A DNA stretch of 64,000 nucleotides, from the NCBI GenBank assembly GCA_030265395.1, contig JARFYF010000084.1, positions 88,166,273-88,230,272 on the forward strand. Reading direction: 5' to 3'. Source of the stretch: Rhina ancylostomus (lineage: Eukaryota). The notes under the pieces are model-generated. The model was given only the letters and a program-made list of their open reading frames with translations, made no database searches and had not been told where the DNA came from. Below, piece after piece: positions 52,490 to 57,654 of the stretch (its first letter is position 1; the number at the start of each line of letters is the position of its first letter). Position numbers and translations under genes: made by a program.

Positions 52490-52678
52490 CACTGTCATCA
52501 TCACTGATCCTAAGTCCTGGAGCTCCATCCCCAACAGCATCTTGGGAGCATCTTCACCAGAAGGACAGCTGTAGTTGAAGCAGCCAGCTTACCACCATAT
52601 TCTCAAGGGGTAATTAGGAATGGGCAATAAATGCTGGCTTTGCCATTAGTGTCCACACCCCAGAAAATGAATAATAAG
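52490..52678 (+). mobile_element. LINE (L2/CR1-group) 3' tail
   Basis: tcctggagctccatccccaacagc...ctcaaggggtaattaggaatgggcaataaatgctggc...gaataataa. A related tail lies on the minus strand near 5330-5400. Confidence 0.6.
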
Positions 52679-52859
52679 GAATTTGAGGGCAGGAATAGCT
52701 GGAGGTGGATAGGAATCTTCCCCTTTTGCTATCTAATGGAGAATGCAGGCAGACCAGTGATCGTTGAGAGGAAGGAGAGTTTGCAGTGCAGCAGTTTAGG
52801 GGTGCGTGAACAGAGGTCTCCAGGGGTGCTAAACCACTCTGTCTTCTCTTGCAAAGCAG

Positions 52860-52990
52860 CCACTCCATGCATCAAAGCAATTAGCCCAAGTGAAGGGTGG
52901 ACCACGGGCGGAGCCACTGTCATCATTATCGGAGACAGCTTCTTTGATGGATTGCAGGTTGTGTTTGGAACAATGCTGGTCTGGAGTGAG
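52860..52990 (+). CDS. EBF3: Isolated EBF/COE-family exon (N-terminal half of the IPT/TIG domain), EBF3-like; coding status unknown
   Basis: Translates to (A)[43 protein letters not shown], matching vertebrate EBF3 as recalled except GDN>GDS. Tandem AAG/CAG acceptor at 52854-52859 and GAG|GTACGT donor. The family call is firm; the paralogue call is tentative. Confidence 0.85.
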
Positions 52991-53299
52991 GTACGTACTT
53001 AATTCTACAAAAGCACCCCAAAGAGCTCCAGATGTGGAAATATCTAAGTGTGGGTGACAAGTTTTTAAATAAAGGAATGCATCTCTCCTCGGTCGTTTCC
53101 CATTCCTTTCCCTGTACTTTCAGTCACTCCCCAAGGAGACTTCCCAGAACAAGGGGTGGGGAGAATCAATGATCGCTTCCTGTTTCTTTTCAAATGCTTC
53201 TGGTAAATGAGATGCTGTTTTTCCGGTCTGCTTCAGTGTTTACCAAACCCCACGCCCAGGAATTGCAGAAGCTGCTTTATTTATTGAAGACACTGGATT

Positions 53300-54050
53300 T
53301 TGGAACATACAGCACAGGAACAGGCCCTTCAGCCCACAATGTCTGGGCCAAACTAATTAAATACCTAACTAAATTAATCTCTTCTGCCTGCACGTGATCA
53401 ATATCCCTCAATTTTCTGCATATTCATCTGCCTTTCTAAGAGCATCTTAAATCGTATCTGCCTCCACCACCACCCTGCAGCTCATTCCAGACACCCACCA
53501 CTCTCTGTGTAAAAAGAAACTTGCCCAACTCATCTCCTTTAAGCTTACCCTCTCTCACCTGAAATGTATGTCCTCTAGTATTCGGCATTTCGACCCTGGG
53601 AGACAGATACCGACTGTCTATCCATGCCTCTTATAAACTTCTATCAGGTCTCCCCTCAGCCTCTGCTGCTCCAAAGAAAACAACCCAAGTTTGTCCAACT
53701 ACTCCTTATAGCACCTGCCCTCTAATCCTGGTAAACCTCTTCTGCACCCTCTCCAAAGCCTCCACAGCCTTCCTGTAATGGGGTGACCAGAATTGAATGC
53801 AATACTCCAGATGAAGCCTAATTGGAGTTTTATAAAGCTGCAACATAACCTCCTGACTCTTGAACTCAGTGCCTCGACTAATAGAGGCAAGCGTGCCACA
53901 CGCCTTCTTTACTGCCCTATCAACCTGTGCAGCCACCTTCAGGGAGCCATGGACTTGGACCCCAAGATCCCTCTGTACATCAACACTGCTAAGAGTCCTG
54001 TCATTAAGAGTGTACTGTCCCTCTACATCTGACCTCCTAAAGTGCAACAT
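53300..54050 (-). mobile_element. CR1 LINE 3' fragment
   Basis: ORF 53706-54089 reads QRDLGVQVHGSLKVAAQVDRAVKKA...HLEYCIQFWSPHYRK..ALERVQKRFTR. Confidence 0.9.
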
Positions 54051-54104
54051 TTTGCTTTGCGGTTCAGTGGTTTTGGGGCATAGAGACATCGAAGGTTCTG
54101 GGTT

Positions 54105-54334
54105 TGAACCTTCCTCTCCCCACCCCTCCCAGTGCCTCCTTTTCCACTCCCTCTTCGCTCCTGTTCACCTCTCCTTCTCCCCCTCCTTTCCCTACACCCA
54201 CCAGCATCCCTCCTTACCCTTCCCCCTTTTCCTGCACCCCTGGCATTCCTCTACCCCTCCCCCTTCAGCCCTCCTCTGTCTCTCTGCCCTCCTGTTCCCC
54301 TCTTGCCCCTTTCTCCATTTCCCCTTCTGCCCCT
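54105..54334. repeat. Low-complexity C/T-rich tract abutting an N gap
   Basis: About 230 bp of nearly pure pyrimidines on the + strand. Confidence 0.85.
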
Positions 54335-56789
54335 NNNNNNNNNNNNNNNNNNNNNNNNNNNNNNNNNNNNNNNNNNNNNNNNNNNNNNNNNNNNNNNNNN
54401 NNNNNNNNNNNNNNNNNNNNNNNNNNNNNNNNNNGTGATTTTTGTTATTGGAAAGACGTTTAGCAATAGAAGCCATTTTATTTCCGAACCAACATCAGCC
54501 CACGATATTTTGCAGTGTCTTGCCTCCTATCATTTATCTGTCGATCTGTATTGAGAAGCTGATTAGCATTGAATGCTGATATGTTTCTGAGTACCATTTA
54601 GTTACACACAATGGAACCATGAGAAAGTGACGGCTTTTTCAGAACTCCCACTCTAACCACTTTTGGTAACGAGTTTGTCTCCTTATGTAACTTGGACATC
54701 TCAGACGCTTTTAATATTTTTCCCAGATTTTGACACTTTATAATGTAGCAGTGCTATTGGGAGGATTTTGGAGATAGATATCGCGTTCAGCAATCTCAAC
54801 AAATACAAGTGTACTCGTATGATCCTAAAGAGGCAGTATAATTAATTAAGGAAGATGTGTTGGTTTCGAATCTTTTTCACATTCCCAGTGAAAGCTTGTC
54901 AGTATAAATTGCATGCTGGGTATTTTCAGGCTGCATTCTGTTTGGCGGGTCGAAATTGTAATGTTCATGTCAATTTTAAATCATGAAATAGTATCCTGTG
55001 TATTACATGTATCATTAAGGAAACCATCTCCCTATGTAATCTATATCTGCAACTACTGATTAGATTCGAAGAATGGATGTTGTGCGTTAGCACAACTTTC
55101 CTATTTAATAAAATCAGACGTAGTCCCTAATTTGAAATAAACATGCTAAGTTTCTCAAGTGTGTACCATCTCACGACATATCTTCCAAATCTGGAATTCT
55201 TGCAAGAAACAGAACACAAAGGTGACATTCCATTGGAACTCAGACCACGCAATATATAGTTGAGGCTTTGAGTCAGACATCAGGATAATTAGAGCGAAGA
55301 TAACACAATCAGGGACGAGGAACCGACGTGGAAGTTATGGAATTTTTATCTTCCCCATAGCCATTCCCCTCCCACCACCCACTCCGTTTTAAATAAAGAA
55401 TTACTGTTCCCCTTTCAACGAAATGGTAAAAATGTGGCAGACATAAAGCAACCTAAAATCTTAACAGAAACCAGCAGAGTGTGAGACACGTAAAATGATG
55501 ATGGGAACAACATATTTATTAACATCCATGCTTGGAATTTCTAACATAAAATATGTTCTTCCCTATAACCATTTGAGTAGCCAACGCGAGAACTTCATGT
55601 TTTTTTTCCAAAATCCGGCTTGTATTCCTCCAAGGACTGAAGTCGATTTGTGACTGAATAGGAATGGTGCACTACGGCCACTCCAGACGTTTTGTTTAGC
55701 TTTTGGAGTACAAGTGTCTTTCAGTGTTTTGCAGAAGGTGACATTAATAATTACACTAGTGAAGACGTGCCCAGGAGATGGCGGTACTAAATTAGTAATA
55801 ATGCAATTGAAAACCAATAAACAAGTGGTTACACCGTGTTTTTAATGTAAATGCACATGTCTAGAACGATAAAGCAGAAGCAGTTTATATATTGGCCTGA
55901 AACAATTAAACTTCGCAGTCATATGCTAAAAGTACCCCATTAGGCAAATATGGACTGATATAAATGTTTTCGCTCGAACAGAATTATAACGTTCTCTAAC
56001 CCGCTCCTTCGCCCCCTTTTCTCTCCCTGCTGAGACGTGTTGCATGCCCAGTTATATTTCGGTCAAGTGACCATTATCACATTGAAAACAATCATTGGAA
56101 TGTTGCTTGGCAATGGGAAGCCGAGTCTGTTCCTTCATTCAGGTACACGCGGAGGCAGAAATGCGACTTGGTCTGATTTCCCTCTCCAAATCCCCGAGTG
56201 CTGATGCTCCTAACAGTGTCAGTTCTATATACTGACTGACATCGACTAACTTCAGACAGGGGAACTAACCTGTTCTTGTCCCACGTCTCTGTTCAGTTAA
56301 ATAATCGAAAAGTAGATCAGAAATAATTAGGGTTTAGCTGGAAAAAAAGATTTAATAACGATTGCGCTGAAATGTGTCACGGCGGATAGTGCCCCACAGT
56401 AGTAAAGTAAGAAATGTGCAGTTATAGAATAGATAAATGACTACTTTGAGAGAAAATCTGGAACATTTCAGGAATGTTTTAGACATTGCCAGGTCGCGTT
56501 CGGTCCCTTCCCTTCAGTATTAGAAGGTATGGCGATTTTTTCATTTTGAAACAAATCATGTTATGTATAAATGAGAGCCAAAAAAATTTCAAAGTGTGTG
56601 TGCGACTACGCTGCTTCTTGCTCTGAGTCCCAAGGAAGTGTTTTCGCCGGTTGATTTTCCATTCTATGTTCAGATTAATTTACCATTTATCACCTGCTCC
56701 GATCTAAGGGTCTGACTTTCTTTAAATGCCAATTTGTCAATTCTTCTGGTAAACAAACACGTTGGTAAATGTTTCGTACTTTGAATTGT

Positions 56790-56995
56790 TGTGCGTCGCT
56801 GGGTTTTTTCCCCCCTTCCGACACTTCTGCAAAAACAGAGGTCAGGGTGTGATTGACATGCAACGGGAGCTCCGCCTTCCGCCCGGGGTTTGAATATAAG
56901 GGAATGTTCCTTTCACGTTTAGTGTCTAGTAGATCTGTTACATCGTAACTAGTCAACAAACGTTAAACATATAGAAGTTAGACATCACGCGTAAG
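56790..56995 (+). promoter_or_regulatory. IRF4: Candidate IRF4 core promoter and non-coding exon 1
   Basis: CpG-rich; GC-box-like ccgccttccgccc; TATAAG at 56895; kB-like GGGAATGTTCC at 56900; AAG|GTAAGA donor at 56995/56996. Mammalian IRF4 starts translation in exon 2. Confidence 0.5.
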
Positions 56996-57453
56996 GTAAG
57001 ATAACTGGTACTTTATCCTGCCACTTTGGTGGCGACTTGTTTTGAATCATTATAGACTTTCATTATCAGACACTGATTAGATGACTCAATCTGTAAAAGC
57101 TGCTGGCCACAAATTTTAAACGCTGATTTTTAAAATTGTGCCCTTACCGGGATGACAGAGTCTGGCTTTGTGTGTAATTGCTGCATATTTTAATTGCGGT
57201 TCAACTTTTAGTGTATTATTTGTGTTCACTCCGAAATTAGAAATGCTTCTTGTTGGTGAACGCTGAGTGAAACTGCCCAGGAGCCCAAGTGATTTCCGAA
57301 GCTCTGCATTGCCGGGGACAACTTGTCCCAGAGCTCGCATCCCTTCCCCCGAGTTAGGCTGACAGCAAGCCGTAAATCTTTAGCCCACCGTTTCAGCCGC
57401 AGGCACCTTTTCTTTGCGCACTCTTTCACACACCCGCATTGTATTCAATAGAA

Positions 57454-57654
57454 ATGAATATGGATTCAGAGTGCAACATGGCTCCAGTGACTTCCGGAAA
57501 CGGCAAACTTCGCCAATGGTTGATCGACCAGATTGACAGTGGCAAATATCCCGGTCTGGTCTGGGAGAACGAAGACAAGACCATTTTTCGGATTCCTTGG
57601 AAACATGCTGGCAAACAGGATTACAACCGAGATGAGGACGCGGCGCTTTTCAAG
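57454..57654 (+). CDS. IRF4: Interferon regulatory factor 4, first coding exon (DNA-binding domain)
   Basis: MNMDSECNMAPVTSGNGKLRQWLIDQIDSGKYPGLVWENEDKTIFRIPWKHAGKQDYNRDEDAALFK; donor AAG|GTAGAA, phase 0. Confidence 0.97.

What the first reader, a model, noticed from the sequence alone, without database searches (positions are those of the whole stretch)
52631..57654. Orphan EBF exon 4.5 kb upstream of IRF4, able to splice in frame into it
Seen: one near-invariant EBF/COE IPT exon (52860-52990) with intact splice sites on the IRF4 strand. It sits in about 600 bp of unique DNA between repeat fragments. The neighbouring EBF exons (VVVSTTV...RRLDPSE and LITPHAIRVQTPP) were not found in the window. 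Its phase-0 donor is in frame with CAG acceptors at 57396 and 57402, which read without a stop into the IRF4 ATG (APFLCALFHTPALYSIE-M), and with the exon at 59263. The frame is also open from an ATG at 52631 in the LINE tail. Known: EBF and IRF4 are both B-lineage regulator families and are not neighbours in mammals. Inference: either a duplicated or transduced EBF fragment, possibly feeding a chimeric EBF-IPT/IRF4 transcript, or a mis-join, since an N gap at 54335-54433 separates the two.
Basis: partly seen in the sequence, partly recalled or inferred. Interest (0 to 1): 0.75.

Follow-up and report, generated by a model that had tools for sequence, protein, structure and literature searches.

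The report
Misplaced EBF exon beside ray IRF4
This is a real, fully conserved piece of an EBF gene that lies on another chromosome in related rays and sharks, and it was most likely stitched in front of IRF4 by an assembly error at a very common repeat, so it is likely not a new fusion gene.

Summary
The exon (52860-52990) is real, has intact splice sites and has no EBF neighbours in the window. Its 43 residues match the batoid 'COE3-like' paralogue exactly (Pristis, Narcine, skates), including a ray-specific N-to-S change. That gene lies on a different chromosome from IRF4 in 14 of 14 informative elasmobranchs. Read contigs of this species and of a relative show one copy at single-copy depth, with the same flanks in both. 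A recent duplicate should double the depth, and an old inert one should have drifted. So this is most likely the working exon of that gene in the wrong place. The likely seam is a very high-copy LTR-like element (51867-52263) whose flanks lack a target-site duplication; read contigs also disagree with the window at 50847-50867; the 100-N gap closes the other side. No listed contig bridges any of these, so the seam is inferred. The in-frame acceptors are weak evidence: in a relative's spliced IRF4 mRNA that stretch is exonic and one AG is lost. No RNA of this species could be laid. Verdict: probable misassembly (0.82); expressed chimera about 0.02.

The parts
52860..52990 (+). First IPT/TIG exon of the batoid 'COE3-like' EBF paralogue (the exon after intron i8 in the numbering of PMC2394523); phase-1 acceptor, phase-0 donor
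   Evidence: 43/43 identical to Pristis, Narcine, Amblyraja and Leucoraja records; Pfam TIG 1-43/84; splice sites
52698..53307 (+). Unique island: the exon with its intron flanks; 47% GC against 33% for 50600-51865 and 38% for 54435-56000
   Evidence: One identical 634-nt contig in run X1 (depth 4.39) and one 913-nt contig in run X2 covering 52433-53335 (depth 6.74); composition
52416..52697 (+).
   Evidence: Raised depth in bin 52513-52869; X2 record 26 runs through it
51867..52263 (+). Very high-copy element with TG...CA-type ends (solo-LTR-like; this copy starts TA); flanks show no 4-6 bp target-site duplication; likely seam of the mis-join
   Evidence: Summed depth about 870,000 in bin 51799-52155 and 300 loose ends at 52263; termini and flanks
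52264..52415 (-). Second, inverted copy of the same element, cut off at about position 164; its remainder is not found left of the first copy
   Evidence: 85.5% inverted match; remainder scores 58 against a shuffled mean of 56
50847..50867 (.). 21-bp overlap at which the listed read contigs of both species leave the window sequence on both sides: a collapsed insert or a second possible seam
53308..54055 (-). High-copy LINE 3' fragment (CR1-like, label recalled)
   Evidence: Summed depth 130,000-275,000 in X1; matches other copies in the window
54335..54434 (.). 100-N gap after a C-rich low-complexity stretch; no flank overlap and no repeat running across it
   Evidence: no listed contig bridges it
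48281..48380 (.). 100-N gap at the left end of the same contig; a decayed LINE appears to run on across it, which ties the contig's left end to the upstream sequence
   Evidence: left flank reaches ruler position 211 at its last base (2 of 500 shuffles as good); right flank matches a second copy (0 of 500) but only weakly the first (64 of 500); continuity at 211/212 under looser scoring
57150..57654 (+). IRF4 first coding exon (ATG 57454); in organism C's mRNA contig the stretch from 57150 is exonic, through the proposed acceptors
   Evidence: X14 record 13, 895 nt, depth 153.8, three GT..AG joints, G57402T; Pfam IRF
59263..63485 (+). Further IRF4 coding exons; closest named protein Pristis pectinata IRF4 (399 of 418 aligned residues)

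Best explanation
The exon is most likely the working first IPT exon of the ray's fourth EBF gene ('COE3-like'), placed upstream of IRF4 by an assembly error and not by biology. Shown: exact match to that paralogue, its separate chromosome in relatives, one contig version at single-copy depth in two species, repeats on both sides, no target-site duplication at the LTR-like element. Inferred: a short-read assembler entered one copy of the very high-copy element on the IRF4 chromosome and left by another copy in the EBF intron (or switched at the 21-bp overlap 50847-50867); the chimeric 6-kb contig was then placed by its left part and joined to the IRF4 contig with a 100-N filler. A variant of the same reading puts the only error at the gap, with everything left of it being EBF intron. 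In the animal the exon would splice to its normal EBF neighbours and IRF4 would use its own 5' end.
For: (1) 43/43 identity to Pristis, Narcine and skate 'COE3-like'; the S residue occurs in 8 of 120 listed EBF proteins and all 8 are batoid records of this paralogue; the 12 elasmobranch records form one clade, support 98/99. (2) IRF4 and this gene lie on contigs of different length in 14 of 14 informative species, for example Pristis 116.6 against 145.6 Mb. (3) Depth of the island contig is 0.74 (X1) and 1.02 (X2) of the median of the seven other listed pieces; residual depth in the exon bin is 0.49 and 0.79, where an extra exon-only copy would add about 2.0 and 2.2 and a full copy about 5.9 and 6.6. 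(4) A neutral copy more than 10% diverged would be expected to carry about 10 replacement changes; 0 are seen (rough Poisson estimate). (5) The LTR-like copy has mismatched flanks and its right flank is a truncated copy whose rest is missing; two other copies of this element in the window abut assembly gaps. (6) Listed read contigs of both species leave the window at 50847-50867. (7) 21 contigs of 0.7-8.5 kb in 64 kb; 5 of 9 100-N gaps have overlapping flanks and a sixth a near overlap.
Against: No contig or long read was seen that leads from the island to EBF sequence elsewhere or that closes the IRF4 upstream region without it, so the mis-join is not directly shown. The tool warns that depth is no copy number and that records resembling human DNA are dropped without notice, so a parent copy could be hidden. 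Coverage is low (depth 4-8). Tables 3, 5, 7 and 8 were cut. The element copy differs from its family at several sites, which should help an assembler cross it correctly. Missing target-site duplications also arise from real recombination between copies. The genome's own EBF locus could not be inspected. Contig lengths stand in for chromosome identity.
Confidence: 0.82

Rival explanations
1. A real but inert genomic duplicate: a few kb of EBF intron-exon-intron were copied next to IRF4 by recombination between LTR copies or by LINE 3' transduction, and the parent gene is intact elsewhere.
For: The island starts just after a LINE-type tail in the same orientation; an LTR without target-site duplication can be a recombination scar; every listed X1 piece matches the window (0-1 differences). 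If the copy arose just before species A and B split (about 2% per lineage), zero replacement changes has probability about 0.14.
Against: Depth is not doubled and no second version at 90% or more shows in either species. No poly(A) run or target-site duplication is visible at the island's 3' end. Organism B has the same LINE-tail and LINE flanks, as expected if they are the gene's normal intron.
Confidence: 0.09
2. A real move without a copy: an insertional translocation carried the exon out of the EBF gene to the IRF4 locus in this species or individual, breaking that EBF allele.
For: Fits single-copy depth, perfect conservation (if recent) and the LTR without target-site duplication.
Against: Needs two breaks on one chromosome and an insertion on another, and loss of an exon that is intact in every batoid record listed. 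An assembly error explains the same signs in a fragmented, low-coverage assembly.
Confidence: 0.04
3. An expressed chimera: the LTR-like element acts as a promoter, and a transcript from ATG 52631 through the exon splices to IRF4 at 57397, 57403 or 59263.
For: Frames are compatible; the element is on the same strand just upstream; conservation of the exon would be explained by selection.
Against: Needs the adjacency to be real. The exon gives only half an IPT domain. In organism C's mRNA the stretch is exonic and the AG at 57402 is lost. None of 120 listed IRF4 relatives carries a TIG domain (689 found). Residues upstream of the IRF4 ATG are poorly conserved in a related genomic ORF. Splicing to the AG at 57451 would give a stop at once.
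Confidence: 0.02
4. The whole EBF gene has moved and IRF4 lies inside one of its introns in this lineage, with the other exons outside the window or in gaps.
For: Fits single copy and conservation; EBF introns can be long (recalled); the window has 20 gaps.
Against: Different chromosomes in 14 of 14 relatives, including Pristis, the closest named one. No neighbouring exon within 52 kb upstream or 11 kb downstream. The sequence right of the gap is IRF4's CpG-rich 5' region.
Confidence: 0.03

Closest known systems
Elasmobranch 'transcription factor COE3-like' paralogue (Pristis XP_051892152.1, Narcine XP_069779598.1, Amblyraja XP_032899911.1, Leucoraja XP_055520993.1); likely the EBF4 ohnologue (recalled synteny, not tested)
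   Same: 43 of 43 residues, including the batoid S; same exon boundaries
   Different: Here the exon stands alone before IRF4; there it sits in a 548-592-residue protein on another chromosome (Pristis, Narcine). The two skate annotations are truncated after this exon.
Interchromosomal chimeric contig in a draft assembly (defined in PMC6816165, passages read)
   Same: One contig with parts matching two chromosomes of relatives, bounded by repeats and filler gaps
   Different: The alien part here is only a few kb, below the 10-kb alignments that the paper's correction step keeps; the tools used for this assembly are not known
LINE 3' transduction or segmental duplication of a gene fragment
   Same: Exon with intron flanks, downstream of a LINE-type tail
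   Different: No second copy, no poly(A) or target-site duplication, no decay
Elasmobranch IRF4 (Pristis XP_051872596.1)
   Same: Ordinary exon structure, 399 of 418 aligned residues identical
   Different: None found; DUSP22, its upstream neighbour in turtle read-through annotations, is not in the window

Membership tests
COE/EBF first IPT exon | Conserved IPT N-terminal peptide | tested here: met
   42/43 to solved COE3; Pfam TIG above cut-off
COE/EBF first IPT exon | Splice sites at the conserved positions and phases | tested here: met
Complete COE/EBF gene at this locus | DNA-binding, second IPT and HLH exons nearby | tested here: not met
   tblastn of 121 proteins against the window; 20 gaps could hide small exons
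Batoid 'COE3-like' paralogue | S at exon residue 26 (with V at 20 outside stingrays and mantas) | tested here: met
   8 of 120 proteins have S, all batoid COE3-like
EBF4 orthologue | Groups with mammalian EBF4 and shares its neighbours | not tested
   No mammalian EBF4 or jawed-vertebrate EBF2 row was in the tree
Segmental duplication | A second, parent copy in the same genome | tested here: not met
   Depth ratio 0.74 and 1.02; small residual depth; a filter could hide records
LINE 3' transduction | Poly(A) end and target-site duplication around LINE plus flank | tested here: not met
   None visible by eye at 53270-53307; same flanks in organism B
Processed retrocopy | Introns lost, neighbouring exons joined | tested here: not met
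   Splice sites and intron flanks kept
Chimeric gene by exon shuffling | Spliced reads from the exon into IRF4 | not testable with these tools
   No RNA run of this species could be laid
Chimeric contig (misassembly) | Parts belong to different chromosomes in relatives | tested here: met
Chimeric contig (misassembly) | Join falls in a repeat or short overlap that reads do not support | tested here: inconclusive
   No target-site duplication; discordance at 50847-50867; no bridging contig either way
Chimeric contig (misassembly) | Long reads or read pairs contradict the join | not testable with these tools
   Only contigs were offered; no whole genome held

The most novel reading that the evidence does not exclude
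In this ray lineage, recombination between copies of a high-copy LTR brought an EBF IPT exon in front of IRF4, and the LTR drives a spliced EBF-IPT/IRF4 transcript that fuses two B-lineage regulators in the germ line.
Probability: 0.02. Interest if true: 0.75.

Novelty: not a real feature. Interest (0 to 1): 0.1.

Why it matters
If the mis-join is right, the use is practical: this assembly probably has a hole in a developmental transcription-factor gene and foreign DNA in the IRF4 regulatory region, and lone conserved exons between repeats in such drafts should be checked for copy number first. If the chimera were real it would be a natural germ-line fusion of two B-cell regulators in an early-branching jawed vertebrate. 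A by-product is that sharks and rays keep a fourth EBF paralogue, with a ray-specific change in an otherwise near-invariant IPT motif.

Tried and rejected
Whole genome: none held, so the parent locus could not be inspected. Sequencing runs: no RNA holder listed on record. Run X14 (organism C) is spliced RNA but has no cover on the exon's bin; a blank in one sample of another species, behind a filter, is not counted as evidence. Run X15 (organism A) was chosen as possible RNA but its contig runs unspliced across an IRF4 intron, so it gave no test of expression. DUSP22 as a synteny anchor: no hit in the window with three turtle DUSP22-IRF4 read-through proteins (part of that output was cut, the rows for these three were seen) or motifs; an exon-like stretch at 50709 that I first took for its end has no support. 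Ten other ORFs and one LINE ORF had no Pfam match; Rfam found nothing in the window. A degenerate pattern for the S-variant found nothing in metagenome contigs. Earlier scan findings: nothing in three look-ups. Reading N-to-S as decay of a pseudo-exon was rejected: it is the batoid state. Misplacement of the whole 48381-54334 contig was judged less likely because a decayed LINE seems to continue across its left gap; the protein-level test supported the left flank (0 of 300 shuffles) but not the right (39 of 300). Literature: EBF4 + cartilaginous fish + shark gave 0 papers; searches listed no paper whose title or abstract start concerns an EBF-IRF4 fusion or this locus in elasmobranchs (listings only; 10 of 18 shown).
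Full report
What is there. The sequence holds a 131-nt exon at 52860-52990 with a pyrimidine tract, a tandem AG acceptor (phase 1) and a GT donor (phase 0). Its 43 codons match solved human COE3 at 42 positions and cover the first half of the TIG profile, positions 1-43 of 84. 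By the numbering in PMC2394523 (passages read) it is the exon after intron i8, between the DNA-binding and IPT domains; that paper notes very strong constraint on the IPT domain. No other EBF exon lies in the window: 121 EBF proteins hit only this place. IRF4 starts at ATG 57454 and is an ordinary batoid IRF4, closest to Pristis pectinata among 13 named proteins (399 of 418 aligned residues).

Which EBF gene it belongs to. The one difference from human COE3 is S for N. This is not decay. Of the 120 proteins listed, 8 have S and all 8 are batoid records of one paralogue annotated 'COE3-like'; Pristis, Narcine and both skates match the window at 43 of 43, while stingrays and mantas differ by one further residue. 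The 12 elasmobranch records in the tree form one clade (98/99), with the five batoids together (95/84). In Pristis, Narcine, Mobula and Hypanus the protein is full length. IRF4 and this gene lie on contigs of different length in 14 of 14 species where both were seen: 6 batoids (Pristis, Amblyraja, Narcine, Mobula birostris, Hypanus, Hemitrygon) and 8 sharks. Left out were Leucoraja (gene on a 57.7-kb contig), Mobula hypostoma (length not separable) and species for which only one of the two genes was listed. The paralogue is likely the EBF4 ohnologue, from recalled synteny; that was not tested.

How many copies. Four of 24 listed runs were laid on 49300-60000 at 90% likeness. In X1 (organism A, 0.90 of words, possibly the source of the assembly and so not independent) one 634-nt contig covers 52698-53331 without a difference at depth 4.39; the seven other listed pieces have a median of 5.9. 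In X2 (organism B) one 913-nt contig covers 52433-53335 with 36 substitutions and 28 gap letters at depth 6.74, against a median of 6.6. Residual depth in the exon's bin is 0.49 and 0.79; an extra exon-only copy would add about 2.0 and 2.2. A young duplicate should show as doubled depth or a second version. An old one, beyond the 90% cut-off, should carry about ten replacement changes if inert, and it has none (rough estimate). The tool warns that depth is no copy number and that human-like records are dropped, so this is strong but not final. The plain reading is that both species have one such exon, under purifying selection, with the same repeat remnants beside it.

Where the seam likely is. 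The window is 21 contigs of 0.7-8.5 kb; 9 of 20 gaps are exactly 100 N, and 5 of these have flanks that overlap by 10-39 bases, so they are fillers. The island is fenced by repeats. On the left is an element with TG...CA-type ends at 51867-52263, with summed depth near 870,000 and 300 varied loose ends at its 3' end. Its flanks share no 4-6 bp duplication. Its right flank is an inverted, truncated second copy whose remainder is absent on the left. The two flanks therefore come from different insertion sites, by real recombination or by an assembler switching copies. Two other copies of the element in the window abut gaps. One kb further left, listed contigs of both species leave the window at a 21-bp overlap (50847-50867), with 24 to 414 letters going elsewhere, so this contig has at least one join that the listed reads do not support. 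GC steps from 33% to 47% across the element and back to 38% after the gap. On the right are a LINE fragment, a C-rich tract and the 100-N gap, with nothing running across. The contig's left gap appears to split a decayed LINE, so its left end probably belongs where it is (moderate support). No listed contig bridges the element, the LINE or the gap, in either direction. The seam is therefore inferred. PMC6816165 (passages read) defines such interchromosomal chimeric contigs and corrects them only from alignments above 10 kb; the tools used for this assembly are unknown.

The chimera idea. Run X14 (organism C) has an 895-nt IRF4 contig at depth 153.8 with three GT..AG joints. It begins at 57150, runs unspliced through 57396 and 57402, and reads T at 57402, which removes that AG. 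So in a relative those positions lie inside the first exon of the main transcript. In-frame, stop-free AGs are not rare here (2 of 14), and the AG closest to the ATG would give a stop. None of the 120 listed IRF4 relatives carries a TIG domain. Half an IPT fold is unlikely to be a working domain (inference). Expression in organism A itself was not tested, because the second organism A run proved unspliced.

Verdict. The exon is genuine; its position beside IRF4 is most likely an assembly error (0.82). A real inert duplicate (0.09), a real translocation (0.04), a nested gene (0.03) and an expressed chimera (0.02) remain open until read pairs, long reads or an alignment to a chromosome-level relative are checked. 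Searches for print on an EBF-IRF4 fusion or this locus (listings only) showed nothing relevant; no supplements were read. The repeat names (LINE, CR1-like, LTR-like) are recalled or inferred from termini and come from no library.

Noticed in passing
window 62928-62937: A 10-N gap splits an IRF4 coding exon and the three bases before it are repeated after it, which would look like a false frameshift in an annotation.
   Followed up: partly
window 50847-50867: Listed read contigs of two species leave the window on both sides of a 21-bp overlap, so the assembly probably lacks an insert here or joins two loci.
   Followed up: partly
window 51867-52263, 16350-16426, 25029-25097: A roughly 400-bp element with TG...CA-type ends and no CpG is extremely abundant in organisms A and B, several times deeper than the neighbouring LINE, and almost absent from the organism C RNA run at 90% likeness. 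Family not identified.
   Followed up: partly
window 45400-47200 and 49000-50800: Two CpG-rich patches (observed/expected 0.4-0.74 against a background near 0.2), the first with several CCAAT-like boxes; possible enhancers or an unannotated promoter. No Pfam or Rfam match.
   Followed up: partly
P0065, P0004: In both skate annotations of this EBF paralogue the model runs into the intron after this same exon, and in Leucoraja it sits on a 57.7-kb contig, so the locus may be hard to assemble in batoids generally.
   Followed up: no
P0266-P0278, P0283, P0287, P0290, P0299, P0316: Sharks and rays keep a fourth EBF paralogue on a very large chromosome, grouping with 'COE3-like' proteins of gar, sturgeon, paddlefish and reedfish and with bat EBF1. 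PMC2394523 found only mammalian members in its EBF4 group; these may be the missing orthologues.
   Followed up: partly
P0144, P0145, P0160: Three turtle 'IRF4' records are DUSP22-IRF4 read-through models carrying a phosphatase domain before the IRF domain.
   Followed up: no
window 56890-56997: A TATA-like box, an NF-kB-like site (motifs recalled) and a strong GT donor suggest a possible upstream non-coding IRF4 exon; the organism C contig started further down, at 57150.
   Followed up: no
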